Sequence record: OR896822.1
Direction: 5' to 3' (one strand)
Length of the DNA: 64,000 bases
Origin: Salmonella phage vB_SenS-3
The notes under the pieces were generated by a model, which saw only the letters and a program-made list of their open reading frames with translations, had not been told where the DNA came from and ran no database searches. A program made the translations under genes and the position numbers. Shown here piece by piece: positions 34,593 to 47,454 of this stretch (position 1 is the stretch's first letter; the number at the start of each line of letters is the position of its first letter).

Positions 34593-34667
34593 CGGGGTGT
34601 AGTCTAAGGGATAGGCAGGAGTCTTCTAAATTCCTTTATGCAGGTTCGAATCCTGTCACCTCGGCCA
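34593..34667 (+). tRNA. tRNA-Arg (anticodon TCT)
   Basis: hand-folded cloverleaf: acceptor CGGGGTG/CACCTCG, anticodon loop CTTCTAA, T-loop TTCGAAT, CCA encoded. Confidence 0.75.
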
Positions 34668-34693
34668 ATCTTATTACCTGTTAGGAAAATAAA

Positions 34694-34894
34694 ATGAAAA
34701 CACGATATATAGTAAAAGTAGTAGGTGAACATTCGCAAGTAAATACCACGGATGTTACAGCACTAGCATTTGAGGTAGTCTCCGGTATAGTCATATTTCA
34801 TAATGGGGATATCAAAGCTCCTGAATTTGCTGTGGATGCTGGCCTGTTTATTTCTGCAACTAAAGTAACTGTAGTAGCTAACTCTTCTAAATAA
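34694..34894 (+). CDS. hypothetical protein
   Basis: 66 aa ORF with RBS AGGAAA. Confidence 0.45.
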   Translation: MKTRYIVKVVGEHSQVNTTDVTALAFEVVSGIVIFHNGDIKAPEFAVDAGLFISATKVTVVANSSK

Positions 34895-34905
34895 TAAGGA
34901 AATAT

Positions 34906-35850
34906 ATGTTTACTAAAAACACTAAAGAACTGACTTCTGAGCAAAAAGTAATTCGTACTATTAAACGTTGGGGTGTTGGTGCTGCTATTAGTCTTGGTGC
35001 TCTTATTCTGGCTCTCAATTCCTATACAGTTGTTCAGGATGGTACTGTTAAGACCCAAACCTTCCTGGGTAAAGTTAGCCCTAATCCTGTATTGCCAGGC
35101 TTCCATATTGTTAACCCATTTGCTTCTTTTGATACTTTTAGTACGAAAGATATTTCCATGAAACTGGATAAACTTCAGGTTCCTAGCCAGGATAAGTTTA
35201 AGTCCACTGTTGACATTACCGTTATGTTGCAGTTTGATGGTGCTAAAGCTCCTATGAACCGTGTTAACGCAGGTACTCAGGATCAAGCTCTGAACAAGTA
35301 CGTTGAAGAGAAGATGCTGTCTACGATTCGTGAGTTTGGTAAGTCTGTACCAAAAGCACAAGATCTGTTCGACGCTAAGATTCAGGCTCAACTGCAAACC
35401 GCTATTCAGCAAGAAGTAGAAGAGTATGCGCGTCCTTATGGTTACACCGTTAAGCAAGTATTCCTTCAGGATATTACTCTGCCACCGGTAATCATGGAAC
35501 AGGTACAGAACACCAAAGTTCGTGAAGAACAAGTTAACGCTGCAAAAGCTGAACTGGCTCGTGTTGAACAAGAAGCACAGCAGAAAGTTAAGCAAGCTGA
35601 GGCGGATCGTTCCGCTCGTGAAAACATGGCAGTAGCTAACGAACGTGACGCAGATGCTAAACTGTACGCAGCTAAGAAAGAAGCTGAAGCTAACGCCGCT
35701 CTGCAACGTACCATTACTCCTGAAATGATTCGTTGGAAGCAGCTGGAAGTTGAAATGCTTCGTGCTGAAAAATACCAAGGTGGTGTACCACAGACTGTTG
35801 TCGGTACTGGCTACGATGGTCAAATGATCATGGATATGCGTAACAAGTAA
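34906..35850 (+). CDS. SPFH/band-7 (prohibitin/HflC-like) membrane protein
   Basis: 314 aa; N-terminal TM helix, SPFH-like core, C-terminal Ala/Glu-rich coiled coil. Confidence 0.7.
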   Translation: MFTKNTKELTSEQKVIRTIKRWGVGAAISLGALILALNSYTVVQDGTVKTQTFLGKVSPNPVLPGFHIVNPFASFDTFSTKDISMKLDKLQVPSQDKFKSTVDITVMLQFDGAKAPMNRVNAGTQDQALNKYVEEKMLSTIREFGKSVPKAQDLFDAKIQAQLQTAIQQEVEEYARPYGYTVKQVFLQDITLPPVIMEQVQNTKVREEQVNAAKAELARVEQEAQQKVKQAEADRSARENMAVANERDADAKLYAAKKEAEANAALQRTITPEMIRWKQLEVEMLRAEKYQGGVPQTVVGTGYDGQMIMDMRNK

Positions 35851-35873
35851 TAGTTACACGTAATCTTCGAACC

Positions 35874-35908
35874 AAGCCCGCGTTTCCTTCGAGAGCGCGG
35901 GCTTTTCT
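35874..35908 (+). terminator. rho-independent terminator after SPFH gene
   Basis: AAGCCCGCG...CGCGGGCTT hairpin followed by TTCTGT. Confidence 0.55.
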
Positions 35909-36054
35909 GTATTTAAGGCAAAAGAAAAAGCCCATAAGTTATTCAACTAAGGTCTTTAGTATTTAATTCTTTAGAATCATATACTATTATTGCAGCAACA
36001 ACGTGCTAACCTTAAGTGCCCTGCGATTTTCCTCTAAAAAGTTAAAAAATTCGA

Positions 36055-36083
36055 TTGCTTGAATGCTAAATTCTCTGTATAAT
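36055..36083 (+). promoter_or_regulatory. sigma70-type early promoter
   Basis: -35 TTGCTT, 17 bp, -10 TATAAT, conserved leader TATAAATTTGAGAGAGGAATCAAAT. Confidence 0.6.
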
Positions 36084-36113
36084 ATATTTATAAATTTGAG
36101 AGAGGAATCAAAT

Positions 36114-37169
36114 ATGATTAAGACTGGTCTAGTAATTGGTAAGTTCGCACCATTAACGCGTGGTCATATTAACCTAATAAACACAGCAGCAACTATGTGT
36201 GAACGAGTTATTGTTGTAGTTAGTCATGATAATCGTTGGCTGGATAAGCAGAACACACGTGATAAGGAAGTATTACAGTTAAAGAATCGACTTCGTTGGT
36301 TAGAACAAACTTACGCGGATATTGAGCACATTTCGGTAGAGTACATTATTGAAGATGATATTCCTGAATATCCGAATGGTTGGCCGGAATATGCTAGAAT
36401 CCTTAATGAAAATTACGGACATTTGCCTGAGATCACCGTTTTCTCTAGCGAACTAGACTATGATGCAGAATATAAGAAATATCTGCCGAAGTTTGGTCAT
36501 TATATTGTAGATTCTGATCGGACTCGTGTTCCAATCTCAGCTACAATGATTCGTAATGATCTTATGAAGTATTGGGAGTTTCTTCCTAGCGTAGTTCGTA
36601 AAGATTACGTGCGTAAGGTTGTAATCATTGGGACTGAAAGCTCGGGAAAGACTACTTTAACAAAATACCTTGCGAAGCTATACAACACTTCGTGGGTAGA
36701 AGAATATGGTCGAACGTATTGTGAAGTTGATCTAGTTGGTAACGAAAATCTGCTTACCAGCGAAGATTATAGTAAAATTGCGTTCAGACACAAAGAGCTA
36801 GAGTTTGAAGCAGAACGTACTGCAAATAAGATCATGTTTGTGGATACAAATGCTTTTATTACTGAGTTCTACCACAGACTTTATGAACATAGTAAGAATC
36901 CTGTGGTTACAGCAATTGCAAAAGAAGAACATTATGATTTAGTAATTGTTCTAGCGCCTACTGTCAAGTGGGTAGATGATGGTTTACGTATTAACTCCGA
37001 TCGTTCAATTACTTCTGAACTATTCGAGCAGATGAAGAAAGAATTTCCAAATCAGTTCCCTGAAGGGCGTACTGTTTACATCGACTCTCCGGACTACAAA
37101 GTTCGTATGGACGAAGCAGTAAACGCAGTAGACTGGCTGATTCATCACTTTAACGTTGGAGAGTTTTAA
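36114..37169 (+). CDS. nadR: NadR-like bifunctional NMN adenylyltransferase / ribosylnicotinamide kinase
   Basis: N-terminal GKFAPLTRGHINLI (nucleotidyltransferase HxGH-type); C-terminal Walker A GTESSGKTT; ATG 36114 after conserved leader RBS. Confidence 0.8.
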   Translation: MIKTGLVIGKFAPLTRGHINLINTAATMCERVIVVVSHDNRWLDKQNTRDKEVLQLKNRLRWLEQTYADIEHISVEYIIEDDIPEYPNGWPEYARILNENYGHLPEITVFSSELDYDAEYKKYLPKFGHYIVDSDRTRVPISATMIRNDLMKYWEFLPSVVRKDYVRKVVIIGTESSGKTTLTKYLAKLYNTSWVEEYGRTYCEVDLVGNENLLTSEDYSKIAFRHKELEFEAERTANKIMFVDTNAFITEFYHRLYEHSKNPVVTAIAKEEHYDLVIVLAPTVKWVDDGLRINSDRSITSELFEQMKKEFPNQFPEGRTVYIDSPDYKVRMDEAVNAVDWLIHHFNVGEF

Positions 37170-37170
37170 T

Positions 37171-37827
37171 ATGACTAACTATCTCGTAAATGACTTTAAA
37201 AACTGGAAACCTCTGGAATATCTGTGGCTGTTCATAGCGGTTGTCTTCATTAGTTTAGCAAACTATAATGGTACAGCTCTAGATTGGGCTACTGCAATAA
37301 CCAATGTGGTTTGTGTTATTCTGGTTGCAAAAGGACGTATTTCCAACTATATTTGGGGCTTAGTGGGTGTTCTTACATATGGTATTACAGCTTTAAACGC
37401 AGATCTTTATGGTAACGCTGCACTAAACCTGCTATACTACGTTCCTATGCAGTTTTATGGAATGTACTTATGGCATAAAAATAAGCCAAGTAATCTGCCA
37501 GATGTTCCAACTAAGGTTCTGACTAAAGCCCAAGCTCTGCTGACTCTAGGGATTCTAGCAGTAGCCACGTTAGGGTATGGTAGTTTCTTAGCTACTACGG
37601 CTGATCCATTTCCAATGTTGGATGCATTTACTGCTGTAGGTAGTGTGATCGCTATGTGGCTTATGGTTAAGCAATATGCCGAGCAGTGGCTGATCTGGAT
37701 TGCTATTAACATTGGTACTGTGTACATTTGGCTTGTAACTGCTCAATCTACAGGTGCATCTTATGCAATCCTAGCAATGTGGCTAGTATTCTTAGGTAAC
37801 TCTATTATAGGAGCCTATAAAGGATAA
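37171..37827 (+). CDS. pnuC: PnuC-like nicotinamide riboside transporter
   Basis: polytopic membrane protein with W/G-rich helices; adjacent and co-oriented with nadR; ATG 37171 after RBS GGAGAG. Confidence 0.7.
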   Translation: MTNYLVNDFKNWKPLEYLWLFIAVVFISLANYNGTALDWATAITNVVCVILVAKGRISNYIWGLVGVLTYGITALNADLYGNAALNLLYYVPMQFYGMYLWHKNKPSNLPDVPTKVLTKAQALLTLGILAVATLGYGSFLATTADPFPMLDAFTAVGSVIAMWLMVKQYAEQWLIWIAINIGTVYIWLVTAQSTGASYAILAMWLVFLGNSIIGAYKG

Positions 37828-37895: not shown

Positions 37896-37924
37896 TTGCT
37901 TAATATAGAAAATTTCTGTATAAT
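37896..37924 (+). promoter_or_regulatory. sigma70-type early promoter
   Basis: -35 TTGCTT, 17 bp, -10 TATAAT; leader identical to the nadR promoter leader. Confidence 0.6.
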
Positions 37925-38259: not shown

Positions 38260-38288
38260 TTGCTTAATGCCTAAATTTTCTGTATAAT
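38260..38288 (+). promoter_or_regulatory. sigma70-type early promoter
   Basis: -35 TTGCTT, 17 bp, -10 TATAAT. Confidence 0.6.
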
Positions 38289-38321: not shown

Positions 38322-38831
38322 ATGTTAGACTATGAGTCTATACTTTATAGATTCCGTTTAGAAGATGGTGTACTGGTGTGGAATCCGCTCTCCGGAAACT
38401 CCAGAGAGGAGAAGATATTTAATACTAAGTTTGCCAATAAACCTGCGGGATCTTTGCACAAAAGCTCTGGGTATATCAGAGTTAACGTTGATCACCAAGA
38501 TTACTTAGCTCATATCATAGTATTTATACTATATTATGGGTATAGGCCGGAAATGGTTGATCATAAAGACTGCAATAAGTTAAATATACATCCTTTAAAT
38601 TTAAGAGCAGCGGATAGTACCACTAATACTCATAATGCTAGTAAATCTTCTAGGAATACTAGCGGATTTAAGGGAGTATCCTACCACAAAGCATCTGGTC
38701 AGTGGCAGGGTAGAATAATGTTTAAAGGTAAGTCATACTCCGCAGGGCTGCACAGTACTCCTGAAGCAGCAAATGAAGCTCTAATTCAACTGAGAGAGAA
38801 ACTTCATGGGGAATATGCCCGAAATAATTAA
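38322..38831 (+). CDS. HNH homing endonuclease with AP2 domain
   Basis: 169 aa; HNH core PEMVDHKDCNKLNIHPLNL; AP2-like GFKGVSYHKASGQWQGRIMFKGKSY; stop abuts tRNA-Ser. Confidence 0.75.
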   Translation: MLDYESILYRFRLEDGVLVWNPLSGNSREEKIFNTKFANKPAGSLHKSSGYIRVNVDHQDYLAHIIVFILYYGYRPEMVDHKDCNKLNIHPLNLRAADSTTNTHNASKSSRNTSGFKGVSYHKASGQWQGRIMFKGKSYSAGLHSTPEAANEALIQLREKLHGEYARNN

Positions 38832-38920
38832 GGAAGAATAGCATAACGGTATTGCAGCAGATTGCTAATCTGTCGGTTTGAAACATAGCCTTGTGGGTTC
38901 GATTCCCACTTCTTCCGCCA
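38832..38920 (+). tRNA. tRNA-Ser (anticodon GCT), long variable arm
   Basis: acceptor GGAAGAA/TTCTTCC perfect; anticodon loop TTGCTAA; T-arm GTGGG-TTCGATT-CCCAC; CCA encoded. Confidence 0.8.
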
Positions 38921-38925: not shown

Positions 38926-39003
38926 GGTTCTCAAGCTCATTTGGTATGAGCCGTCGCCTCATAAGCGAAAGGTAGGTAGGTTCGAATCCTCCGGGAGCCA
39001 CCA
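38926..39003 (+). tRNA. tRNA with CAT anticodon (Met or Ile2)
   Basis: acceptor GGTTCTC/GGGAGCC with G-U pairs; D-stem GCTC/GAGC; anticodon loop CTCATAA; CCA encoded. Confidence 0.7.
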
Positions 39004-39152: not shown

Positions 39153-39238
39153 GGATCTGTGGTGGAATTGGCAATACACACCATGCTTAAAACGTGGCGC
39201 TTAAATGATTGAGGGTTCGAGCCCCTCCAGATCCACCA
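39153..39238 (+). tRNA. tRNA-Leu (anticodon TAA), long variable arm
   Basis: acceptor GGATCTG/CAGATCC perfect; anticodon stem CCATG/CGTGG, loop CTTAAAA; T-arm GAGGG-TTCGAGC-CCCTC; CCA encoded. Confidence 0.8.
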
Positions 39239-39636: not shown

Positions 39637-39666
39637 TTGCTTTTTACTTAAGATTTCTGCTATAAT
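39637..39666 (+). promoter_or_regulatory. sigma70-type early promoter
   Basis: -35 TTGCTT, 18 bp, -10 TATAAT. Confidence 0.55.
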
Positions 39667-40008: not shown

Positions 40009-40038
40009 TTGCTCAAGTGCCTTAAAACTTGATATAAT
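40009..40038 (+). promoter_or_regulatory. sigma70-type promoter heading a tRNA transcription unit
   Basis: -35 TTGCTC, 18 bp, -10 TATAAT; about 120 nt leader then tRNA-Tyr. Confidence 0.55.
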
Positions 40039-40162: not shown

Positions 40163-40243
40163 GGGGGATTGGCTCAGTGGCGACGGCGCCTGGCTGTAGA
40201 CCGGGTATATCACGCGGAGGTTCGAGTCCTCCATCCCCCACCA
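40163..40243 (+). tRNA. tRNA-Tyr (anticodon GTA), long variable arm
   Basis: acceptor GGGGGAT/ATCCCCC perfect; anticodon stem CCTGG/CCGGG, loop CTGTAGA; T-arm GGAGG-TTCGAGT-CCTCC; CCA encoded. Confidence 0.75.
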
Positions 40244-40251: not shown

Positions 40252-40326
40252 GCACCTATCGTCTAATGGTTAGGACATCAGGATTTCAATCTGAGAATTG
40301 AACTCCGATTCTCCGTGGGTGTGCCA
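40252..40326 (+). tRNA. tRNA-Glu (anticodon TTC)
   Basis: acceptor GCACCTA/TGGGTGT; D-stem GTCT/GGAC; anticodon stem TCAGG/TCTGA, loop ATTTCAA; atypical T-arm; CCA encoded. Confidence 0.6.
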
Positions 40327-40335: not shown

Positions 40336-40406
40336 TGGGGTACGCATAGGTTGCTAGTGGGCCTCCAAAACCCATGAAAAGGTTTCGAATACCTTTACCC
40401 CTGCCA
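40336..40406 (+). tRNA. tRNA-Trp (anticodon CCA), atypical
   Basis: T-arm AAGGT-TTCGAAT-ACCTT perfect; acceptor 6 bp with U1/U72 mismatch; anticodon loop CTCCAAA; CCA encoded. Confidence 0.55.
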
Positions 40407-40412: not shown

Positions 40413-40487
40413 GCACCTTTAGCTGAGATGGATTAGCGCTTGCCTGAAGAGCTTGAGAGGTTCGTTCAATTCGAACAGGGTGCACCA
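40413..40487 (+). tRNA. tRNA, probable Phe (anticodon GAA); anticodon stem imperfect
   Basis: acceptor GCACCTT/AGGGTGC; T-arm GTTCG-TTCAATT-CGAAC perfect; loop CTGAAGA fits Phe but stem has two U-U mismatches; CCA encoded. Confidence 0.55.
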
Positions 40488-41015: not shown

Positions 41016-41083
41016 TACGACCGTTGGCTGAATGGCTTAGGCGGAGGCCTGCAAAACCTCCTTATGTGAGTTCGAATCTCATG
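41008..41083 (+). tRNA. tRNA-Cys (anticodon GCA)
   Basis: acceptor CGACCGT/GCGGTCG; anticodon loop CTGCAAA; T-arm GTGAG-TTCGAAT-CTCAT; CCA encoded; 5' end overlaps stop of 40827..41015. Confidence 0.7.
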
Positions 41084-41235
41084 CGGTCGTCCAATTTGCT
41101 GAAAGAATTGTTAAATCAATTCAGGCACGCGTAGGAACACTGCCTCAGTAATTGAAAGATGAGGCACGGTTTGGAGAGGTATGCCGCTACACGCTACGGT
41201 GCTAACTCCGTCTAGGTGAAAATCCTAGTCAGCAA

Positions 41236-41318
41236 TATAAATTTAGGGTCGTTAGCCAAGCGGTTTGGCGGTGGACTGTTAATCCATGTCGAAAGACAAC
41301 GTAGGTTCGAATCCTACA
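41236..41318 (+). tRNA. tRNA with GTT anticodon (Asn-like) and 13-nt variable arm
   Basis: acceptor GGGTCGT/ACGGCCC; anticodon stem GTGGA/TCCAT, loop CTGTTAA; T-arm GTAGG-TTCGAAT-CCTAC perfect; CCA encoded. Confidence 0.6.
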
Positions 41319-41431
41319 CGGCCCGCCATATTCTATGTAGGATTAAGTAAACCGGTAGCCAACCAGCTATCATTACTGATATCGAATTCAGTCACAGATA
41401 CCATTTTTCACTAACAACTGAGGAAATAGAT

Positions 41432-41620: not shown

Positions 41621-42202
41621 ATGCACGGAATATCCTTACCCATTCCAGGGTTTGAGGAGTACTTAGTAAGTTTGGATGGGTTAGTATTTAGTATCAAATC
41701 AAACAAAATACTAACCCCAATAACCAGTAATTACGGATACTTATCTATACGTCTCCATAAAAATGGTCAACAGAGAAATACCGGTGTACATAGGATTTTA
41801 GCATGTGCATTTAAGAAATTACCAAGTCTAGACTCTGAACTAGAAGTTGACCATATTAACACAGACATTACTTATTGGGGTCTTAATAACTTACAAGTGC
41901 TCACAAAAGAGCAGCATCTAGAAAAGACTTTAAAAGATAAAGGATTTAGTAAACTAAACCATGATAATTGTTGTAAGGATTGTGGTAAAGCTATTTCTTT
42001 AAAAGCTGAAAAATGTCAGGAGTGCTCTTCACATAAACCAAAAGATATCTCTATAACTAAAGAAATAATCGAGGTTACAGTAAGAGAGCTAGGCTGGTCA
42101 GGTGCAGGGAGAAAGTTAAATTATTCAGATAATGGGTTGCGTAAAAGATACACTTCTTTAGGAGGCAATCCTAAAGAACTTAAAAAGTTAAAGGTACTAT
42201 AG
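41621..42202 (+). CDS. HNH homing endonuclease (NUMOD-like N-terminus)
   Basis: 193 aa; motifs HRILACAF...VDHINTD...NNLQ; Cys-rich C-terminal region; stop codon overlaps 5' end of tRNA-Asp. Confidence 0.7.
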   Translation: MHGISLPIPGFEEYLVSLDGLVFSIKSNKILTPITSNYGYLSIRLHKNGQQRNTGVHRILACAFKKLPSLDSELEVDHINTDITYWGLNNLQVLTKEQHLEKTLKDKGFSKLNHDNCCKDCGKAISLKAEKCQECSSHKPKDISITKEIIEVTVRELGWSGAGRKLNYSDNGLRKRYTSLGGNPKELKKLKVL

Positions 42203-42267
42203 TCTAACGGTTAGGATACTCCCCTGTCACGGGAGAGGTAGGGTTTCGATTACCCTTAGTACCGCCA
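42193..42267 (+). tRNA. tRNA-Asp (anticodon GTC)
   Basis: acceptor GGTACTA/TAGTACC perfect; anticodon stem CTCCC/GGGAG, loop CTGTCAC; T-arm AGGGT-TTCGATT-ACCCT; CCA encoded. Confidence 0.85.
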
Positions 42268-42273: not shown

Positions 42274-42350
42274 ACATCCATAGCTCAACTGGTCAGAGCT
42301 ACCGCCTCTTAAGCGGAGGGTTGAAGGTTCAAGTCCTTCTGGGAGTACCA
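42274..42350 (+). tRNA. tRNA-Lys (anticodon CTT)
   Basis: D-stem GCTC/GAGC; anticodon loop CTCTTAA; T-arm GAAGG-TTCAAGT-CCTTC; acceptor with one A-A mismatch; CCA encoded. Confidence 0.65.
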
Positions 42351-42553
42351 AACAAATAGAGTAAAGGCTACAGTAGGTGCACCCTTACGGACTGCTACAC
42401 CGGACTCTATTCATTAACAAACATTCTAGCGTGGTGGAGAGGGGACACCAGCTGTGCGAGGGTAGAAGCTTGTTCGATTCAAGTGAAAGAATGGTTCTCG
42501 TAAATCCGCAGCAGTGATAGTAGGTTCAAGTCCTACCTAGATTGACTTATTAT

Positions 42554-42627
42554 GCGTTCGTAGTTAAAAGGTATAATTTTTGGTTGCCAACCAGAAGTTG
42601 AGGGTTCGATTCCCTCCGACCGCACCA
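42554..42627 (+). tRNA. tRNA-Gly (anticodon GCC)
   Basis: T-arm GAGGG-TTCGATT-CCCTC; acceptor GCGTTCG/CGACCGC (one mismatch); anticodon stem TTTGG/CCAGA, loop TTGCCAA; CCA encoded. Confidence 0.65.
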
Positions 42628-42878
42628 AATTTAGGTTTCTGCTTCCTAGAGAACGGACTCCTAGATAAACAAGGCGATGAGTTTCCGGCCGGTTCTAGTC
42701 GCTGAAAATCCTCCCGACCAGGTAGGTGTAGGTAAACGAAAGTTTACTTATTGAGTAGGTTCCGATAGATCGGCGGATCTATTCTGGCATTTAAGAGAAG
42801 TCTCGCAAACTTCTTTGTCAGCAGAGCGTTTGAAGCGTGAGGTGGCCTACACAATAAGTAAATTTATTAAAAACTCAT

Positions 42879-42907
42879 TTGCTATTTCACTTAATTCTCT
42901 TTATAAT
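42879..42907 (+). promoter_or_regulatory. sigma70-type promoter heading a tRNA transcription unit
   Basis: -35 TTGCTA, 17 bp, -10 TATAAT; tRNA-Pro begins about 33 nt downstream. Confidence 0.6.
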
Positions 42908-42939: not shown

Positions 42940-43017
42940 CTCCGTGTAGCTCAGTTTGGCCAGAGCGTTCCGTTTGGGGCGGTAGGGTCGGGGGTTCAAA
43001 TCCTCCCACGGAGACCA
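42940..43017 (+). tRNA. tRNA-Pro (anticodon TGG)
   Basis: acceptor CTCCGTG/CACGGAG perfect; D-stem GCTC/GAGC; anticodon loop TTTGGGG; T-arm GGGGG-TTCAAAT-CCTCC; CCA encoded. Confidence 0.8.
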
Positions 43018-43023: not shown

Positions 43024-43101
43024 TGCGGGTTAGATCTCTGGTAGAGATCGCTAGTCTCATAAGCTAGAAAGAGGTAGGTTAGATTCCTACACCCGCTTCC
43101 A
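43024..43101 (+). tRNA. tRNA with CAT anticodon (Met or Ile2), U1/U72 mismatch
   Basis: D-stem GATC/GATC; anticodon stem CTAGT/GCTAG, loop CTCATAA; T-arm GTAGG-TTAGATT-CCTAC; CCA encoded. Confidence 0.7.
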
Positions 43102-43285: not shown

Positions 43286-43363
43286 GGGTCGTTAGCTCAA
43301 TTGGTTAGTAGCACTTGCCTTTTAAGCAATAGGTTGAAGGTTCGAGTCCTTCACGACCCACCA
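43286..43363 (+). tRNA. tRNA-Lys (anticodon TTT)
   Basis: acceptor GGGTCGT/ACGACCC perfect; anticodon loop CTTTTAA; T-arm GAAGG-TTCGAGT-CCTTC; CCA encoded. Confidence 0.8.
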
Positions 43364-43372: not shown

Positions 43373-43446
43373 GCTCGGTTAGTTTAATGGGAGAACCCCG
43401 TCTTTACACGGCGGTTGCGATAGTTCGATTCTATCACCGAGTACCA
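43373..43446 (+). tRNA. tRNA-Val (anticodon TAC)
   Basis: acceptor GCTCGGT/ACCGAGT; anticodon stem CCGTC/GGCGG, loop TTTACAC; T-arm GATAG-TTCGATT-CTATC; CCA encoded. Confidence 0.75.
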
Positions 43447-43471: not shown

Positions 43472-43825
43472 ATGCAATTATCAAGCAAGATTCAAGGCTA
43501 TTTTGGTCATGTAACAATGGAGTTCGCTATCTCTAAAGGTTGGGATTTCGAGCAAGATCTAGCTGAGTTCTACAAAGATATTGATCTGAACGTACCATAC
43601 ATGGGACTCTCCACTGGTCAAGAGATCACAGAAGGCGATGTGTTCAAGGCAAGTCAAGGTGAGGTAACACCTAGTTTTGCCAAGTTCTGGTTAGGACTTA
43701 CTTTGAAGGAAGATGCACCAGAGGATGGTGTGGTTATGCAGAGTATGCACTCTGGAAGCTCTGATTACCTTTTCGTTAGCGACGTTAAGGAACTACAAGA
43801 AATCGCTAAAAATGTACTTGCTTGA
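43472..43825 (+). CDS. hypothetical protein
   Basis: ATG 43472 after RBS AAGGAA (listed ORF starts at TTG 43466); acidic protein. Confidence 0.5.
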   Translation: MQLSSKIQGYFGHVTMEFAISKGWDFEQDLAEFYKDIDLNVPYMGLSTGQEITEGDVFKASQGEVTPSFAKFWLGLTLKEDAPEDGVVMQSMHSGSSDYLFVSDVKELQEIAKNVLA

Positions 43826-43846
43826 TGCTTAATTTCTTGTTATAAT
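43818..43846 (+). promoter_or_regulatory. sigma70-type promoter overlapping the 3' end of CDS 43472..43825
   Basis: -35 TTGCTT, 17 bp, -10 TATAAT; leader then forms an 8-bp hairpin GATGAGGA/TCCTCATC. Confidence 0.55.
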
Positions 43847-44108
43847 ATTTATATAAATTGATGAGGAGAAATCCTCATCAAAGTTCACTAAGGTATTAGC
43901 TCGACCTAGGGCTGGCTGCCAAAAAGCACAATTGCAATTAGACCCCTAATGGCGGGGGATACTTTGCAATAAGTTCTAGATTAGTCCACTAGATTCAGTG
44001 GCAACTGAATAGTGTATCGGGTTTGTGAAGAGCGGTTATCCTCTACTGGCTAATGTCTGAGGGTAATACGCACACCGAGCTAATAGCCTTAGTAAACTTA
44101 AAGATTTT

Positions 44109-44187
44109 GGGGAATGGGTCTGCTTGGAGTGGACACCTCGCTTGCACCGAGGATATCAGAAGAGTTCGAATCTCTTATTCTCCACCA
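44109..44187 (+). tRNA. tRNA-Ala (anticodon TGC), copy 1
   Basis: acceptor with G3-U70 wobble pair (Ala identity element); anticodon stem CCTCG/CGAGG, loop CTTGCAC; CCA encoded. Confidence 0.65.
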
Positions 44188-44192: not shown

Positions 44193-44268
44193 GGGGTCAT
44201 AGGTTATTTGGTTAAACTTACTGCCTTGCAAGCAGTGGAACTCAGTTCAATTCTGAGTGACTCCACCA
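44193..44268 (+). tRNA. tRNA-Ala (anticodon TGC), copy 2
   Basis: acceptor GGGGTCA/TGACTCC with G3-U70; anticodon stem ACTGC/GCAGT, loop CTTGCAA; T-arm CTCAG-TTCAATT-CTGAG; CCA encoded. Confidence 0.75.
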
Positions 44269-44287
44269 AACAAATTAAGGAAATAAT

Positions 44288-44506: not shown

Positions 44507-44513
44507 ATAAAAT

Positions 44514-44594
44514 GGGGATGTGGCGAAATTGGCAGACGCGCTAGATTTAGGTTCTAGTCTTCGGGTGTGGGTTCGAGTCCCTCCATCCCTACCA
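44514..44594 (+). tRNA. tRNA-Leu (anticodon TAG), long variable arm
   Basis: acceptor GGGGATG/CATCCCT; anticodon stem CTAGA/TCTAG perfect, loop TTTAGGT; T-loop TTCGAGT; CCA encoded. Confidence 0.7.
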
Positions 44595-44768
44595 AACATT
44601 GGATTAACTCATGATGAAAACTCCTATAACTGATATCTGGTTAGCTGTTAATACATCAACTAAAGAGTATGTGTTTATAGAGTATGGTCAGAGGTATGAC
44701 CAAAAGATGTATAATCTCATACTTCCAGTATCTGCTAATGAAGTTTATGATTTAATCCTGAGATCTAC

Positions 44769-44861
44769 GGAAGAGCAAATCGATTAGGTGACGAAAACCG
44801 CTTGGAAAGTGGCTGACTTGTTAAAGCAGGCTTGAGAATTCGAATCTCTCTTCTTCCGCCA
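44769..44861 (+). tRNA. tRNA-Ser (anticodon GGA), long variable arm
   Basis: acceptor GGAAGAG/TTCTTCC; anticodon loop TTGGAAA; T-loop TTCGAAT; CCA encoded; 93 nt. Confidence 0.6.
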
Positions 44862-44882
44862 AACAACTAATAGGGAATATAA

Positions 44883-45125
44883 ATGAAAGTCAAGATTATG
44901 ATGTTGGATTTAGCTAATGATAAGTTTTTCTTGCGTCATACATTCCCTAGTAAGCAAGCTTTAGAGTTTCATATCAAGTACGCAATAGGCATGAAACTTC
45001 CTGAGCGAGAAATATTTGATAAAGCATGTGATACTGGAGTTATTTATGTATGGCAAACAACCTATCATGATAATCCAGAAGATCTTCGAAAAGAAGTAGA
45101 ACAAATACTAGAAGATAGGACGTAG
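44883..45125 (+). CDS. hypothetical protein
   Basis: 80 aa ORF; 3' end overlaps the start of tRNA-Ser(TGA). Confidence 0.5.
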   Translation: MKVKIMMLDLANDKFFLRHTFPSKQALEFHIKYAIGMKLPEREIFDKACDTGVIYVWQTTYHDNPEDLRKEVEQILEDRT

Positions 45126-45199
45126 TGGTATGTAACCGGTCTTGAAAACCGGCCCGCTGTAGTGATACGGTGATGGTTCGACTCCATTATCTTCTGCCA
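45109..45199 (+). tRNA. tRNA-Ser (anticodon TGA), long variable arm
   Basis: acceptor AGAAGAT/ATCTTCT perfect; anticodon stem CCGGT/ACCGG perfect, loop CTTGAAA; T-arm GATGG-TTCGACT-CCATT; CCA encoded. Confidence 0.75.
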
Positions 45200-45524
45200 A
45201 ATCTTGAAGTATGCCGGAATCGGTAGACGGGGCTTCCTAAAGGGCGTAAGGGGAACATCCACTCCTCATAAGATACCCGAAAACGAGGCTGAGATAACTG
45301 GTCTATCTCGTGAAGGTTCGAGTCCTTCTGCTTCTTGATATTCATCAATGGCTCAAAGTGTAACGGTGCTATTTGATGCTCTTAGTAAGACTTTCCCGAC
45401 ATGCGTTCGGGAGTAAGCTGCTAAGGCTAGAGTAGAAGAGTTTCGGAGAGCCGCCACAATTGAAGTCTTTAGAATGGGTATCGCCCTTTAGCCCCTCCGA
45501 AAGGGATAACTAGAGATTTCAATT

Positions 45525-45601
45525 GTGGTTATATCATAATTGGTTAATGATCCTGATTGTGAATCAGGCCTATGTGGATTCGAATTCCACTAACCACCCC
45601 A
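45525..45601 (+). tRNA. tRNA-His (anticodon GTG)
   Basis: acceptor GTGGTTA/TAACCAC perfect; D-stem TCAT/ATGA; anticodon stem CCTGA/TCAGG, loop TTGTGAA; T-arm GTGGA-TTCGAAT-TCCAC; CCA encoded. Confidence 0.85.
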
Positions 45602-45607
45602 AATATT

Positions 45608-45682
45608 GCGTCCTTATTTCAATGGAAAGAATGTAAAGCTACGAACTTTACGATCGGGGTTCGATTCCCTGAGGATGCACCA
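45608..45682 (+). tRNA. tRNA-Arg (anticodon ACG)
   Basis: acceptor GCGTCCT/AGGATGC; anticodon stem TAAAG/CTTTA perfect, loop CTACGAA; T-loop TTCGATT; CCA encoded. Confidence 0.75.
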
Positions 45683-45706
45683 ATTAACTTATACAGGAAC
45701 TAAAAT

Positions 45707-45907
45707 ATGGCTGATTTCTGCAAAGAATGCTCTATCGATATGTGGGGCAAAGATACTGGTGATCTTTCTGGTCTGATTACAGAAGCCGAAGTTAAAGAAG
45801 GCTATGGTGCTGTTGTAATCTGTGAAGGTTGTGGTATTATTCGTGTTGACCATAATGGTAAACGTCTAGAAGAACCAGATCCAATTGCCACGGTTCCTGT
45901 AGAATAA
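45707..45907 (+). CDS. small Cys-rich protein
   Basis: 66 aa; CKEC...CEGC cysteine pairs (zinc-ribbon-like). Confidence 0.45.
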   Translation: MADFCKECSIDMWGKDTGDLSGLITEAEVKEGYGAVVICEGCGIIRVDHNGKRLEEPDPIATVPVE

Positions 45908-45914
45908 AAATTAT

Positions 45915-45990
45915 TGGGATGTAGATCAATTGGCAGATCGTCGGCCTCTGACTCCGAAGGTTCCACGTTCGATCCGTGGCATCCCAGCCA
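45915..45990 (+). tRNA. tRNA-Gln (anticodon CTG)
   Basis: acceptor TGGGATG/CATCCCA perfect; D-stem GATC/GATC; anticodon loop CTCTGAC; T-arm CCACG-TTCGATC-CGTGG; CCA encoded. Confidence 0.7.
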
Positions 45991-45996
45991 AACAAT

Positions 45997-46072
45997 TGGA
46001 GAGTAGTGTAACGGTTAGCACAACGGCCTTTGACTCCGTTAATGGTAGGTTCGATTCCTCCTTCTCCAGCCA
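45997..46072 (+). tRNA. tRNA-Gln (anticodon TTG)
   Basis: acceptor TGGAGAG/TTCTCCA; anticodon stem ACGGC/TCCGT, loop CTTTGAC; T-loop TTCGATT; CCA encoded. Confidence 0.65.
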
Positions 46073-46078
46073 ATTTAT

Positions 46079-46153
46079 GCGTGATTAGTTCAGTGGCTAG
46101 AATAACTGGCTTCCAACCAGTAGACACGAGTTCGACTCTCGTATCCCGCACCA
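46079..46153 (+). tRNA. tRNA-Gly (anticodon TCC)
   Basis: anticodon stem ACTGG/CCAGT perfect, loop CTTCCAA; T-arm ACGAG-TTCGACT-CTCGT perfect; CCA encoded. Confidence 0.75.
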
Positions 46154-46169
46154 AATATAAGGAAACGTT

Positions 46170-46391
46170 ATGGACGTTTTTGAGTTTCGTAATAAAAACC
46201 CCAATAGACGAGTTTTAATTATTGGTGAAACATATAGAGCTTATGAGCAAGAAGATGGTTCGGTTTTATTAAATGATGAAAAACAAGGCTATAGCTTTCA
46301 TCCAGAAGAAACATATGAAGAATTTCGTACTAAGTTTCTTTTACCAGACTGGCTAGCAATAGCTGAGCAAAGAGAATCCAAAGATGGCTGA
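46170..46391 (+). CDS. hypothetical protein
   Basis: 73 aa ORF with RBS AAGGAAA. Confidence 0.45.
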   Translation: MDVFEFRNKNPNRRVLIIGETYRAYEQEDGSVLLNDEKQGYSFHPEETYEEFRTKFLLPDWLAIAEQRESKDG

Positions 46392-46535
46392 TAATCTAAA
46401 GCTAAAAGTAGATAAACGAATGAAGTGCGTTGAGGTTGAGTTGGGTGAAGAACGTTTAAAACTCTCCTTCGAATTCTTACAGCAGTTGGCTATGACAGTA
46501 ATGTCTGATAAGTCTCCTGTATTTGAAAAAGAAAT

Positions 46536-46558
46536 CCCGTTGAAATAACGGGTTTATT
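46536..46558 (+). terminator. putative terminator hairpin just upstream of tRNA-Thr
   Basis: CCCGTT-GAAATA-AACGGG hairpin followed by TTTATT. Confidence 0.45.
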
Positions 46559-46632
46559 GCTCCTAAAGCATTGCTGGCGATGCAGTTGCCTTGTAAGCAT
46601 CTGAACCGGGTTCGATTCCTGGTGGGAGCACC
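46559..46632 (+). tRNA. tRNA-Thr (anticodon TGT)
   Basis: acceptor GCTCCTA/TGGGAGC; D-stem GCAT/ATGC; anticodon loop CTTGTAA; T-arm CCGGG-TTCGATT-CCTGG; CCA encoded. Confidence 0.75.
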
Positions 46633-46647
46633 AAATTTAAAAATTCA

Positions 46648-46677
46648 TTTGCCTTCTCTCTTATTTCTTGTTATAAT
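46648..46677 (+). promoter_or_regulatory. sigma70-type early promoter
   Basis: -35 TTGCCT, 18 bp, -10 TATAAT, conserved leader. Confidence 0.55.
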
Positions 46678-46707
46678 ATTTATATAAATTAATGAGAGGG
46701 AAACCAA

Positions 46708-47001
46708 ATGAAACGTTATCTTTCTGTCGTATTCCAAACGGGTGGTCAACGCTACACTTATGAATTTCCTGAGTCCTGGAAAATTAAAGAAGGTGATCAA
46801 GTTGTTGTATTAACACCTCGTGAAGGCTTCAAAGTAGTAACGGTTAAACAAGTATTTCCAAAAGATCACGAACCATCTAAGTCTATTCAGTACAAGATGA
46901 TTCATGGTCTAGTTCGTAAAGTACCACGAACTGAGGTAGAAGTAGATAAGACTGGTGAAGCTAAATACCAGTATACTTCTTACTTAGACGAGTTGTTATA
47001 A
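46708..47001 (+). CDS. hypothetical protein
   Basis: 97 aa ORF with conserved leader RBS. Confidence 0.5.
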   Translation: MKRYLSVVFQTGGQRYTYEFPESWKIKEGDQVVVLTPREGFKVVTVKQVFPKDHEPSKSIQYKMIHGLVRKVPRTEVEVDKTGEAKYQYTSYLDELL

Positions 47002-47207
47002 TGAGAATTACTTTCACAGAAAAGATTATGGGCAATGGTGTTATGATCATTACCGCATGGGATGGTAATCAGTGGTGTAGTGTTTCAGGTATTAAGCCTG
47101 AAGAACAAACACTAGAAAATATCTCAAAGATTAAGCGAAGAATGGCAGAACGTGCACGACTTCCAGGTGCTCCTAGAAATGGTAAACGTTCTGCAATTAA
47201 ATGTTAA
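47001..47207 (+). CDS. hypothetical protein
   Basis: 68 aa ORF; start overlaps previous stop (ATGA). Confidence 0.45.
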   Translation: MRITFTEKIMGNGVMIITAWDGNQWCSVSGIKPEEQTLENISKIKRRMAERARLPGAPRNGKRSAIKC

Positions 47208-47208
47208 T

Positions 47209-47285
47209 GCTTCGGTAGCTTAGCGATCTAAAGCACTCGGCTGATAACCGAGAGATCGGGGGTTTAAATCCCTCCCGGAGTACCA
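47209..47285 (+). tRNA. tRNA-Ile (anticodon GAT)
   Basis: acceptor GCTTCGG/CCGGAGT with G-U pairs; D-stem GCTT/AAGC; anticodon stem CTCGG/CCGAG perfect, loop CTGATAA; CCA encoded. Confidence 0.75.
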
Positions 47286-47381
47286 AATTTAGGAAGTAAG
47301 ACTATGCGTCCAGGAAAGTTTAAAAAAGCTAATTGGTCTAAAGAGTATAAAGAATACTTACTTAGTCTAGTAAAACATAAT

Positions 47382-47454
47382 AGTTAGTTGGCAGAGAGGT
47401 TATGCACCTCCTTCATACGGAGCGCCTACAGTGGTTCAAATCCACTACTAACTA
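47382..47454 (+). tRNA. tRNA with CAT anticodon (Met or Ile2)
   Basis: acceptor AGTTAGT/ACTAACT perfect; anticodon loop TTCATAC; T-arm AGTGG-TTCAAAT-CCACT perfect; CCA not encoded. Confidence 0.65.

What the first reader, a model, noticed from the sequence alone, without database searches (positions are those of the whole stretch)
34593..47454. Large tRNA array (about 30 genes) with duplicated isoacceptors and three CAT-anticodon tRNAs
Hand-folding gives tRNAs for Arg(TCT, ACG), Ser(GCT, GGA, TGA), Leu(TAA, TAG), Tyr, Glu, Trp, Phe(?), Cys, Asn-like, Asp, Lys(CTT, TTT), Gly(GCC, TCC), Pro, Val, Ala(TGC twice), His, Gln(CTG, TTG), Thr, Ile and three CAT tRNAs; nearly all encode CCA. Several host anticodon-nuclease defences (PrrC, retron-associated PtuAB, PARIS) cleave specific tRNAs such as Lys and Tyr, and phage tRNA variants are reported to counter them. 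The duplicated Ala, Lys and Gln genes and non-host-like stems fit replacement tRNAs.
Basis: partly seen in the sequence, partly recalled or inferred. Interest (0 to 1): 0.6.

Follow-up and report, generated by a model that had tools for sequence, protein, structure and literature searches.

The report
T5-like phage tRNA gene array
This is the well-known cluster of about 30 transfer-RNA genes carried by T5-like phages, which gives the virus its own decoding set and, in close relatives, has been shown to replace host tRNAs that bacterial defence nucleases destroy; it is real but already described.

Summary
ARAGORN by default, Rfam adds Glu, and Trp and Ser(GGA) appear only at a relaxed threshold. 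Shuffled sequence gives none.

The window is 99.9% identical to annotated Salmonella Epseptimavirus phages (RA40, PMBT36) and syntenic with the curated tRNA region of T5. The array covers all 20 amino acids and 50-55 of 61 codons. Of the 30 genes, 29 encode CCA, and host aminoacylation marks are kept. Nine T5-type early promoters and two HNH homing endonuclease genes lie inside the array; two more promoters and a third HNH gene lie just upstream.

The anti-nuclease reading is published for T5 and SP15: tRNA-Lys/Thr/Asn against PARIS, tRNA-Tyr against retron-Eco7, tRNA-Lys against PrrC. In this window Lys(UUU) and Thr(UGU) differ from the host at the mapped AriB determinant (U39→G), but Asn(GUU) matches the host there. 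Codon supply fits equally well.

The only fresher points are allele-level. Individual tRNA genes assort as discrete ~60%-divergent alleles among related phages. This phage's tRNA-Tyr lacks the long variable arm that PtuAB cuts.

Verdict: already known, low interest.

The parts
34593..34667 (+). tRNA-Arg(TCT)
   Evidence: ARAGORN. Rfam 49.3 bits. 98.7% identical to T5 tRNA-Arg.
38832..38920 (+). tRNA-Ser(GCT), class II
   Evidence: 60.5 bits. 98.9% identical to T5 Ser3.
38926..39003 (+). tRNA with CAT anticodon, the homologue of T5 tRNA-Ile2(CAU)
   Evidence: 40 bits. 85.9% identical to T5 tRNAI2, with the same position after Ser(GCU). The Ile2 identity is inferred from T5's annotation and was not tested.
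39153..39238 (+). tRNA-Leu(TAA); absent from T5
   Evidence: 50.7 bits.
40163..40243 (+). tRNA-Tyr(GTA): 81 nt, G37, with a variable region of about 9-11 nt and no stable stem
   Evidence: 49.9 bits. Rfam aligns it as a class-I tRNA with a 7-nt insertion. 61-66% identical to the T5 and SP15 alleles. The allele occurs in 88 phage records.
40252..40326 (+). tRNA-Glu(TTC), atypical T arm
   Evidence: Rfam 35.2 bits with mismatches in the T stem. Annotated as tRNA-Glu in PMBT36. Missed by ARAGORN.
40336..40406 (+). tRNA-Trp(CCA), marginal
   Evidence: Found only by ARAGORN -ps90, with no Rfam hit. The minimum-energy fold is cloverleaf-like. It lies at the position of the 71-nt tRNA-Trp annotated in T5.
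40413..40487 (+). tRNA-Phe(GAA), G37
   Evidence: 45.8 bits. 100% identical to T5.
41018..41093 (+). tRNA-Cys(GCA)
   Evidence: 40.7 bits.
41246..41328 (+). tRNA-Asn(GTT): 83 nt, with an extra 3-bp arm in the variable region; its AriB site is host-like
   Evidence: 59 bits. Fold. 100% identical to SP15 Asn. Positions 36-41 read UAAUCC, as in E. coli asnT.
42193..42267 (+). tRNA-Asp(GTC)
   Evidence: 63.1 bits. A rare allele, shared only with mar003J3 in my sample.
42274..42350 (+). tRNA-Lys(CTT); the E. coli lys genes seen here all carry UUU
   Evidence: 58.6 bits. The five E. coli lys genes at the lysT locus are all UUU.
42554..42627 (+). tRNA-Gly(GCC); absent from T5
   Evidence: 61.1 bits.
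42940..43017 (+). tRNA-Pro(TGG)
   Evidence: 53.3 bits.
43024..43101 (+). Initiator-type tRNA-fMet(CAT), with a 1x72 mismatch (U1/U72)
   Evidence: 44.1 bits. 97.4% identical to T5 tRNAfM.
43286..43363 (+). tRNA-Lys(TTT); its anticodon stem has C31-G39 where the host has A31-U39
   Evidence: 64.3 bits. 85.9% identical to E. coli lysT, 81% to T5 and 74% to SP15. Positions 36-41 read UAAGCA against host UAAUCA. The allele occurs in only 14 phage records at 95% identity or more.
43373..43446 (+). tRNA-Val(TAC)
   Evidence: 57.8 bits.
44109..44187 (+). tRNA-Ala(TGC) copy 1, G3:U70 kept
   Evidence: ARAGORN. Rfam 38.1 bits in E-value mode. G3:T70 shown. Positional homologue of T5 tRNA-Ala.
44193..44268 (+). 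tRNA-Ala(TGC) copy 2, a different allele, G3:U70 kept
   Evidence: 59.6 bits.
44514..44594 (+). tRNA-Leu(TAG)
   Evidence: 53.5 bits.
44772..44861 (+). tRNA-Ser(GGA), marginal and possibly decaying
   Evidence: Found only by ARAGORN -ps90. Acceptor mismatches and a poor fold with z=+1.4. Homologue of T5 tRNAS2(GGA).
45110..45199 (+). tRNA-Ser(TGA), class II
   Evidence: ARAGORN. Best Rfam match is the tRNA-Sec model at 39.6 bits, below its threshold. Its 17-nt anticodon stem-loop is identical to E. coli serT.
45525..45601 (+). tRNA-His(GTG); no G-1 encoded
   Evidence: 59.8 bits. The base at -1 is T.
45608..45682 (+). tRNA-Arg(ACG); absent from T5
   Evidence: 55 bits.
45915..45990 (+). tRNA-Gln(CTG)
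   Evidence: 56.4 bits.
45997..46072 (+). tRNA-Gln(TTG)
   Evidence: 50 bits.
46079..46153 (+). tRNA-Gly(TCC)
   Evidence: 65.5 bits.
46559..46633 (+). tRNA-Thr(TGT); positions 36-41 read UAAGCA against host UAAUCA
   Evidence: 47.4 bits. 96% identical to T5 and 100% to SP15.
47209..47285 (+). tRNA-Ile(GAT)
   Evidence: 64.7 bits.
47382..47455 (+). Elongator tRNA-Met(CAT); the only member without an encoded CCA
   Evidence: 48.6 bits. 94.7% identical to T5 tRNAM.
32244..32272 (+). T5-type early promoter (A-tract, TTGCTT, N17, TATAAT) upstream of the array
   Evidence: Homology to T5's annotated promoters, alignment of ten copies and motif positions. A further copy lies at 32927-32955.
36055..36083 (+). 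T5-type early promoter before nadR-pnuC
37896..37924 (+). T5-type early promoter
38260..38288 (+). T5-type early promoter before the HNH gene, Ser(GCT), Ile2 and Leu(TAA)
39637..39666 (+). T5-type early promoter
40009..40038 (+). Promoter about 125 nt upstream of Tyr-Glu-Trp-Phe; homologue of T5 P14a
   Evidence: Sequence read, motif, T5 P14a annotation. The strong tRNA-Tyr promoter is described in PMC11555353.
40770..40798 (+). T5-type early promoter before Cys, Asn and the downstream genes
42879..42907 (+). T5-type early promoter (P13a homologue) before Pro-fMet-Lys(TTT)-Val
43818..43846 (+). T5-type early promoter (P13b homologue) before Ala-Ala-Leu-Ser-Ser-His-Arg-Gln-Gln-Gly
46649..46677 (+). 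T5-type early promoter (P11 homologue) before Ile-Met
32962..33444 (+). HNH homing endonuclease gene, just upstream of the array
   Evidence: Pfam HNH_3, E=2.3e-12.
38322..38831 (+). HNH (+AP2) homing endonuclease gene ending 1 nt before tRNA-Ser(GCT)
   Evidence: Pfam HNH_3 E=1.2e-8 and AP2 E=1.7e-5.
41621..42202 (+). NUMOD4/HNH homing endonuclease gene overlapping the start of tRNA-Asp by 10 nt
   Evidence: Pfam NUMOD4 E=4.1e-5 and HNH_3 E=1.5e-3.

Best explanation
This is the tRNA-rich region (TRR) of a T5-like phage (Demerecviridae, Epseptimavirus). About 30 tRNA genes sit among small ORFs and homing-endonuclease genes. They are transcribed early from a series of strong T5-type sigma-70 promoters as multi-gene transcripts (inferred from homology to T5's mapped promoters). 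Host RNases process these transcripts, and host aminoacyl-tRNA synthetases charge the products (inferred from the encoded CCA and the conserved identity elements). Together the tRNAs form a nearly complete phage-owned decoding set. This set does two compatible things. First, it supplies the A/U-ending and rare codons that the phage's genes favour. Second, because its members differ from host tRNAs in their stems and loops, it keeps translation going when host tRNAs are cut by tRNA-targeting defences: PARIS AriB (Lys UUU, Thr UGU, Asn GUU), retron-Eco7 or Septu PtuAB (Tyr), and PrrC (Lys). The defence-evasion step has been shown directly for T5 and SP15. For this phage it is inferred from homology and from substitutions at the mapped AriB determinant.
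For: Identity and annotation: the region is 99.9% identical to the annotated phages RA40 and PMBT36 and syntenic with the curated T5 tRNA region. Real tRNAs: 28 pass ARAGORN default or Rfam gathering thresholds, against 0 expected by chance. Functional marks: CCA is encoded in 29 of 30, the discriminator base matches E. coli in 25 of 27, both Ala copies keep G3:U70, both Gln keep U1-A72, fMet keeps a 1x72 mismatch, and Ser and Leu keep long arms. Expression signals: eleven copies of the conserved T5 early-promoter element, one of them about 125 nt upstream of tRNA-Tyr. Coverage: all 20 amino acids, and 50 of 61 codons by strict wobble or 55 with U34 four-box reading. Divergence from the host: 55-86% identity, and 25 of 26 anticodon stem-loops differ. 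AriB determinant: U39 becomes G in Lys(UUU) and Thr(UGU); a U39-to-A change abolishes cleavage in vitro (PMC12409363). Tyr lacks the long variable-arm stem in which PtuAB cuts (PMC12673091, PMC13096335). Thr and Asn are 100% identical to SP15's. Experiments in relatives: PMC11464382, PMC12409363, PMC11555353.
Against: There is no experiment on this phage or on its particular Lys(UUU) and Tyr alleles. Asn(GUU) is identical to host asnT at the AriB site, and the Lys(UUU) anticodon loop that PrrC targets is identical to the host's. The feature shown to protect SP15 tRNA-Tyr is a longer variable loop, whereas this allele has a shorter one, so resistance cannot be carried over (PMC12673091). Some defences cleave phage tRNAs as well or better than host ones, as RorSlfn5 does with T5 tRNA-Ala (PMC13056530). 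Three members (Glu, Trp, Ser-GGA) are structurally marginal and may not function. Codon usage alone also fits the set.
Confidence: 0.8

Rival explanations
1. Codon compensation only. The tRNAs exist to match the phage's AT-rich codon usage to a host tRNA pool tuned for GC-rich codons, and their divergence from host tRNAs is neutral drift.
For: The codons most enriched in phage genes relative to E. coli genes are all read by phage tRNAs: AGA 6.7x, AGG 4.5x, CTA 4.2x, GGA 2.8x, ATA 2.3x, TTA 2.3x, CCA 2.4x. The six codons left unread even with expanded wobble (ACC, CCC, CGG, CTC, GCC, GTC) are all under-used by the phage, at 0.27-0.64x.
Against: The set covers all 20 amino acids, including codons that are abundant in the host (AAA, GAA, GAT, CGT). 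By strict wobble, covered and uncovered codons show no difference in mean phage/host bias. In T5, tRNA deletions are tolerated on ordinary hosts but become lethal on hosts carrying PARIS or retron-Eco7 (PMC11464382, PMC11555353). Discrete ~60%-divergent alleles of the same anticodon swap between phages, which codon matching does not predict.
Confidence: 0.15
2. General pool maintenance. T5-like phages degrade host DNA and shut off host transcription early, so the array simply replaces tRNAs that can no longer be resynthesised or that turn over during infection. No specific nuclease is involved.
For: A near-complete decoding set and early strong promoters fit bulk replacement. This rests on established knowledge of T5 pre-early host DNA degradation, recalled from memory and not tested here.
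Against: tRNAs are stable over the length of an infection. The published phenotypes are specific to one tRNA and one defence (PMC12409363, PMC11555353). This reading does not explain substitutions at nuclease determinants or the allele shuffling.
Confidence: 0.08
3. Largely selfish or decaying DNA. The tRNA genes are cargo or targets of homing endonucleases, and many are pseudogenes without a role in translation.
For: Three HNH homing-endonuclease genes abut or overlap tRNA genes. Several degenerate tRNA-like elements are present: the 'SeC(tca)' call, the RNA2 homologue, and the marginal Ser-GGA, Trp and Glu. T5 marks Gln2 as a pseudogene.
Against: Twenty-seven members score well as canonical tRNAs and keep CCA and identity elements. 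Many alleles are conserved at 95-100% across genera. Function has been demonstrated for homologues (PMC12409363). This reading is plausible only for a minority of members.
Confidence: 0.03

Closest known systems
Bacteriophage T5 tRNA gene region (AY543070, about 28.0-40.9 kb; called the 'TRR' by Azam et al. 2024)
   Same: The gene order is the same from Arg(UCU) through Ser-Ile2 and Tyr-Glu-Trp-Phe-Cys-Asn-Asp-Pro-fMet-Lys-Val-Ala-Leu-Ser-Ser-His-Gln-Gln-Gly-Thr to Ile-Met. It has the same promoter element, interspersed HNH endonucleases and homologues of T5's stable RNAs. Ten tRNAs are 91-100% identical.
   Different: The window has six extra genes: Leu(UAA), Lys(CUU), Gly(GCC), Arg(ACG), a second Ala(UGC), and a nadR-pnuC module between Arg(UCU) and the main array. 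About twelve tRNAs are replaced by 54-81%-identical alleles, including Tyr and Lys(UUU).
Escherichia phage SP15 TRR (NC_048627), the experimental model for tRNA-Tyr against retron-Eco7 and tRNA-Lys against PrrC170
   Same: Asn, Thr and Gln(UUG) are 100% identical. Gln(CUG), Arg(UCU), Ile, His and fMet are 97-99% identical.
   Different: Tyr is 61% identical (91 nt with an 18-nt variable arm, against 81 nt with about 9 nt here). Lys(UUU) is 74% identical. So the two alleles that were tested experimentally are not the ones present here.
Epseptimavirus genomes RA40, PMBT36, EPS7 and vB_EcoS-26175I
   Same: RA40 and PMBT36 are 99.9% identical over the whole region and already carry tRNA annotations. 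EPS7 and 26175I share most alleles.
   Different: Even within the genus, individual genes switch allele: Tyr in EPS7 (61%), Lys(UUU) in EPS7 and 26175I (65%), and Ile in 26175I (63%).
T4/T6 tRNA cluster with the SegB homing endonuclease
   Same: It is a phage tRNA cluster with an embedded homing endonuclease. In T6, tRNA-Tyr dosage counters Septu PtuAB (PMC13096335).
   Different: T-even clusters hold only about 8-10 tRNAs and a GIY-YIG rather than an HNH endonuclease, and escape is by gene amplification. No tandem amplification is seen here.

Membership tests
tRNA genes (Rfam RF00005 / ARAGORN) | Cloverleaf covariance-model score at or above the gathering threshold, or an ARAGORN default call | tested here: met
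   Met for 28 of the 30. Trp and Ser(GGA) are found only at the relaxed ARAGORN threshold.
tRNA genes (Rfam RF00005 / ARAGORN) | More calls than chance would give | tested here: met
   No default calls in 30 dinucleotide shuffles, and none elsewhere in the window.
tRNA genes (Rfam RF00005 / ARAGORN) | Host aminoacylation identity elements retained (N73, Ala G3:U70, Gln U1-A72, fMet 1x72 mismatch, class II arms of Ser and Leu) | tested here: met
   N73 matches E. coli in 25 of 27 (both Gly carry A73 rather than U73). Both Ala copies keep G3:T70. tRNA-His lacks an encoded G-1.
T5-like (Demerecviridae) tRNA-rich region | Synteny and sequence homology with the T5 tRNA region | tested here: met
   blastn blocks are collinear with AY543070 28.0-41.8 kb. 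The region is 99.9% identical to annotated Epseptimavirus genomes.
T5-like (Demerecviridae) tRNA-rich region | T5-type early promoters and interspersed HNH homing endonucleases | tested here: met
   Eleven promoter copies and three HNH genes.
Nuclease-evading replacement tRNAs (T5 Lys/Thr/Asn against PARIS AriB) | Encodes isoacceptors of the targeted host tRNAs (Lys UUU, Thr UGU, Asn GUU) | tested here: met
   All three are present.
Nuclease-evading replacement tRNAs (T5 Lys/Thr/Asn against PARIS AriB) | A substitution in the AriB site U36-A-A-U39-C40|A41 | tested here: inconclusive
   Lys and Thr read UAAGCA (U39 to G), which meets the criterion. Asn reads UAAUCC, identical to host asnT, which does not. 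G39 itself was never tested; only U39-to-A was (PMC12409363).
Nuclease-evading replacement tRNAs (T5 Lys/Thr/Asn against PARIS AriB) | Resistance to cleavage and rescue of infection | not testable with these tools
   This needs in vitro AriB assays and plaque assays.
Nuclease-evading tRNA-Tyr (SP15/T5 against retron-Eco7 PtuAB) | A variable loop longer than that of E. coli tRNA-Tyr, which SP15 tRNA-Tyr requires for evasion | tested here: not met
   The variable region here is about 9 nt, against 13 nt in the host, 14 in T5 and 18 in SP15. It is a different allele class, so membership of the tested type is not claimed. It could still evade cleavage because it lacks the stem that is cut.
Nuclease-evading tRNA-Tyr (SP15/T5 against retron-Eco7 PtuAB) | A strong dedicated promoter upstream | tested here: met
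   TTGCTC-N18-TATAAT with an A-tract at 40009-40038, homologous to T5 P14a. Its strength was not measured.
Selenocysteine or opal-suppressor tRNA (the 33482-33555 'SeC(tca)' call) | A conserved UCA anticodon arm, a Sec-type long variable arm, and a CCA or G73 end | tested here: not met
   The anticodon arm is not conserved among the T5, SP15 and HMD-P4 homologues, which ARAGORN reads as 'Ser(act)'. There is no CCA, position 37 is C, and the element lies inside the homologue of T5 stable RNA 'RNAX'. It gets 33 bits on the general tRNA model and has no tRNA-Sec hit.

The most novel reading that the evidence does not exclude
The array is one draw from a shared pool of interchangeable tRNA alleles that Demerecviridae swap gene by gene, probably through the embedded HNH homing endonucleases. 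On this reading the allele classes are alternative escape solutions to tRNA-cleaving defences. Examples in this phage are a tRNA-Tyr that has lost the long variable-arm stem where PtuAB (retron-Eco7, Septu) cuts, a tRNA-Asn that has gained an extra variable arm while keeping a host-like AriB site, and a rare Lys(UUU) allele with G39. The degenerate tRNA-like RNAs could be leftovers of this turnover, or decoys.
Probability: 0.3. Interest if true: 0.5.

Novelty: already known. Interest (0 to 1): 0.2.

Why it matters
tRNA-cleaving defences such as PARIS, retron-Eco7, Septu, PrrC and Schlafen, together with phage-encoded tRNAs, are an active arms-race topic, and T5-like phages are candidates for Salmonella and E. 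coli biocontrol. This window adds no new principle, because near-identical genomes are already annotated and the mechanism is published for T5 and SP15. Its practical value is allele-level. It shows that the alleles tested so far do not represent all T5-like phages. It also points to specific untested variants (short-arm Tyr, extra-arm Asn, G39 Lys) that could predict which defences a given therapeutic phage can bypass.

Tried and rejected
1. I rejected the reading of the 33482-33555 'SeC(tca)' call as a selenocysteine or opal-suppressor tRNA. It is a conserved tRNA-like element whose anticodon arm is not conserved.

2. I did not count the relaxed ARAGORN call 'Arg(gcg)' at 42424-42492 as a 31st tRNA. 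It is the homologue of T5 'RNA2', a tRNA-like stable RNA, and it lacks CCA.

3. The generic sigma-70 and terminator scan was uninformative, with 36 promoter-like sites against 41±6 in shuffles. The promoters were found instead through homology to T5's mapped promoters and a specific motif. That motif is common across the whole early region, with 25 copies on the + strand, so it is not specific to the tRNA array. A first pattern search used the wrong spacer length and found nothing relevant.

4. I tried to learn whether the short tRNA-Tyr allele had already been tested under the name 'KpP_HS106' in Azam et al. The sequence is not in the held supplements, and that phage is not among the 83 records carrying the allele. 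This stays unresolved.

5. They are different anticodons.

6. The covered-versus-uncovered codon bias test under strict wobble showed no difference (0.07 against -0.04). The set is too complete for this test to separate the hypotheses.

7. The host comparison used E. coli K-12 rather than Salmonella, because no Salmonella genome collection was available. That enterobacterial tRNAs are nearly identical between the two is background knowledge and was not tested here.

Full report
**What is there.** ARAGORN with default settings finds 28 tRNA genes in the 64-kb window, all on the + strand. Twenty-seven lie between 34593 and 47455, and one 'SeC(tca)' call sits at 33482-33555. Rfam's tRNA model gives 27 hits at gathering score. 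These include a Glu at 40252-40323 (35.2 bits) that ARAGORN missed. A more permissive run recovers Ala copy 1 at 38.1 bits and places Ser(TGA) under the related tRNA-Sec model, below that model's threshold. At a relaxed ARAGORN threshold two more appear: Trp(cca) at 40336-40406 and Ser(gga) at 44772-44861. Thirty dinucleotide shuffles of the region gave no default calls and 0.07 relaxed calls per shuffle, and the other 48 kb of the window gave none. Twenty-nine of the 30 encode the 3' CCA.

**Where it comes from.** The region is 99.9% identical over 14 kb to Salmonella phages RA40, PMBT36 and vB_SenS-3, and 668 phage records share similarity. RA40 is classified as Demerecviridae, Markadamsvirinae, Epseptimavirus. 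Both RA40 and PMBT36 already annotate the tRNAs. The region is collinear with the curated tRNA region of phage T5 (AY543070). That record annotates 24 tRNAs, including Trp(CCA), Glu(UUC) and Ser2(GGA), and it resolves the three CAU tRNAs as Ile2, fMet and Met. By position and identity the window's CAT genes correspond to Ile2 (38926, 85.9%), fMet (43024, 97.4%) and Met (47382, 94.7%).

**Anatomy.** The array is not a bare tandem.
- A conserved element (A-tract, TTGCTT, N17, TATAAT, then a conserved downstream box) matches T5's mapped early promoters and occurs 11 times around the array. One copy lies about 125 nt upstream of tRNA-Tyr. The same motif occurs throughout the early region, with 25 copies on the + strand, so it marks early transcription generally.
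- Three HNH homing-endonuclease genes abut tRNA genes: 32962-33444, 38322-38831 and 41621-42202. The last overlaps tRNA-Asp by 10 nt.
- Between Arg(TCT) and the main array lie an SPFH protein and a NadR-like plus PnuC NAD-salvage pair, and a GrcA-like gene follows the array. The small inter-tRNA ORFs belong to phage families of unknown function.

**Are they functional tRNAs?**
- The discriminator base equals the E. coli one in 25 of 27 comparable cases.
- Both Ala genes keep G3:U70, and both Gln keep U1-A72.
- The fMet-type gene keeps a 1x72 mismatch, and Ser and Leu keep long arms.
- All 20 amino acids are represented. By strict wobble the set reads 50 of 61 sense codons, or 55 if U34 in four-codon boxes also reads U.
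- Three members are marginal: Glu has mismatches in the T stem, Trp has no Rfam hit, and Ser(GGA) has acceptor mismatches and a poor fold.

I fetched the E. coli K-12 counterparts.
- Identities run from 55% to 86%.
- Twelve of 26 seven-nucleotide anticodon loops are identical to the host's.
- Only Ser(UGA) has an identical 17-nt anticodon stem-loop.

For PARIS, AriB cuts host Lys(UUU), Thr(UGU) and, less efficiently, Asn(GUU) at U36AAUC|A/C41. A U39-to-A change abolishes cleavage and an A41-to-C change inhibits it (PMC12409363). Here Lys(UUU) and Thr(UGU) read UAAGCA, so position 39 is changed, to G. Asn(GUU) reads UAAUCC, exactly as host asnT does. For PrrC, which cuts 5' of the wobble base (recalled from memory), the Lys(UUU) loop is identical to the host's. 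For retron-Eco7 and Septu, PtuAB cuts host tRNA-Tyr in the long variable arm, and SP15 tRNA-Tyr escapes through an even longer arm (PMC12673091, PMC13096335). This window's tRNA-Tyr is different again. It is 81 nt long, has G37, and has a variable region of about 9-11 nt without a stable stem. The result is therefore mixed. It is consistent with evasion for Lys, Thr and Tyr, and it does not show evasion for Asn.

**What is already published.**
- T5 tRNA-Lys neutralises PARIS (PMC11464382).
- T5 Lys, Thr and Asn together are necessary and sufficient against PARIS (PMC12409363).
- T5 and SP15 tRNA-Tyr neutralise retron-Eco7, and SP15 tRNA-Lys neutralises PrrC170. That study also surveyed 250 T5-like TRRs (PMC11555353).
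- The general hypothesis was stated in 2023 (PMC10264068).
- Some defences cut phage tRNAs too (PMC13056530).

**Rival: codon supply.** I used 15,343 phage codons from the window and 10,312 E. coli codons from one locus. The codons most enriched in the phage (AGA, AGG, CTA, GGA, ATA, TTA, CCA) are all served by phage tRNAs. The six codons left unread are all ones the phage avoids. This fits codon compensation as well as it fits evasion, and the two readings are not exclusive. The published phenotypes that are specific to one defence are what favour a defence role.

**Allele mosaic (my addition).** I compared the window with T5, SP15, EPS7, 26175I, mar003J3, HMD-P4, Sugarland and a Proteus phage. 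Same-anticodon identities are bimodal: 89 of 159 comparisons are at 90% or more, 51 are at 50-70%, and few lie between. Alleles assort independently of phage relatedness.
- The window's Tyr allele is shared with 26175I (98.8%) and with Klebsiella phage Sugarland, a different genus (93.8%), but not with EPS7 (61%).
- Its Lys(UUU) allele is shared only with mar003J3.
- Its Asn, Thr and Gln(UUG) are 100% identical to SP15's, while its Tyr and Lys are not.

Across the phage collection the Tyr allele occurs in 88 records and the Lys(UUU) allele in only 14. Among nine Demerecviridae, Lys(UUU) shows five different versions of the AriB site, and none equals the host's. Gene-by-gene replacement, plausibly helped by the HNH endonucleases, is the simplest reading, but that is inference. 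I found no paper that describes the short-arm Tyr allele.

**Other elements.** The 'SeC(tca)' call is a tRNA-like structure at the 5' end of the homologue of T5's stable 'RNAX'. Its acceptor, D and T arms are conserved, with a compensatory change in the T stem. Its anticodon arm is not conserved and it has no CCA, so the 'tRNA-Sec' annotation in RA40 and 26175I is probably spurious. Homologues of T5's RNA3, RNA2, RNAIV, RNA2H and RNA1/I/III are also present.

**Verdict.** This is a real and correctly read tRNA array that belongs to a well-studied, already annotated kind. Novelty: already known. Interest: low. The modest allele-level leads are listed above.

Noticed in passing
window 33482-33555 (within about 33441-34592): The ARAGORN/Rfam 'tRNA-SeC(tca)' call, annotated as tRNA-Sec in RA40 and 26175I, is a conserved tRNA-like element at the 5' end of the homologue of T5 stable RNA 'RNAX'. 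Its acceptor, D and T arms are conserved with one compensatory T-stem change. Its anticodon arm is not conserved, and it has no CCA. This is probably a misannotation in GenBank.
   Followed up: yes
window ~41331-41403, 42422-42546, ~42753-42855, ~43893-44090, ~45203-45524: Homologues (76-88% identity) of T5's annotated 'stable RNAs with unknown functions': RNA3, RNA2, RNAIV, RNA2H and RNA1/RNAI/RNAIII. Some keep T-arm-like motifs (for example GAAGGTTCGAGTCCTTC at 45312-45328), but none scores as a tRNA in Rfam. Their function is unknown. They may be decayed tRNAs or processing elements.
   Followed up: partly
window 36063-37827: A NadR-like gene (NMN adenylyltransferase plus ribosylnicotinamide kinase) and a PnuC nicotinamide-riboside transporter gene are inserted between tRNA-Arg(TCT) and the main array, where T5 has other genes. 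A phage NAD+ salvage module could matter against NAD+-depleting defences.
   Followed up: partly
window 45524-45601: The phage tRNA-His does not encode G-1 (the base at -1 is T), whereas E. coli hisR does. G-1 is the major HisRS identity element, so it is unclear how this tRNA is charged. The T5 homologue is 97% identical.
   Followed up: partly
L019 (EPS7) and L023 (26175I), tRNA-Lys(TTT): The Lys(UUU) allele of EPS7 and 26175I has the anticodon loop CCTTTAA, that is C33 in place of the near-universal U33. This is next to the PrrC cut site (site recalled from memory).
   Followed up: no
window 42554-42627 and 46079-46153: Both phage tRNA-Gly genes carry A73, where E. coli tRNA-Gly has U73. 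These are the only two discriminator mismatches among 27 comparisons.
   Followed up: no
window 34075-34584: A 169-aa ORF with no Pfam or PHROG match occupies the interval where T5 annotates the non-coding RNAX. It is annotated as hypothetical in RA40, PMBT36 and 26175I. Whether it codes for a protein is not established.
   Followed up: partly
window 32475-32918: A YqeY/GatB-like ORF (PHROG 'tRNA amidotransferase', E=1.5e-46) lies immediately upstream of the tRNA region. It is conserved in SP15, EPS7 and HMD-P4.
   Followed up: partly
window 34906-35904 and 47822-48190: An SPFH/Band-7 protein gene is followed by a strong terminator-like hairpin (35874-35904, 12 bp). A GrcA-like glycyl-radical cofactor gene lies just downstream of the array.
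   Followed up: partly
whole window: The T5-type promoter motif occurs 25 times on the + strand, all but one between about 19.7 and 59.7 kb, and 6 times on the - strand below 19.7 kb. This matches the GC-skew sign change near 20 kb and indicates a divergent transcription switch there.
   Followed up: partly
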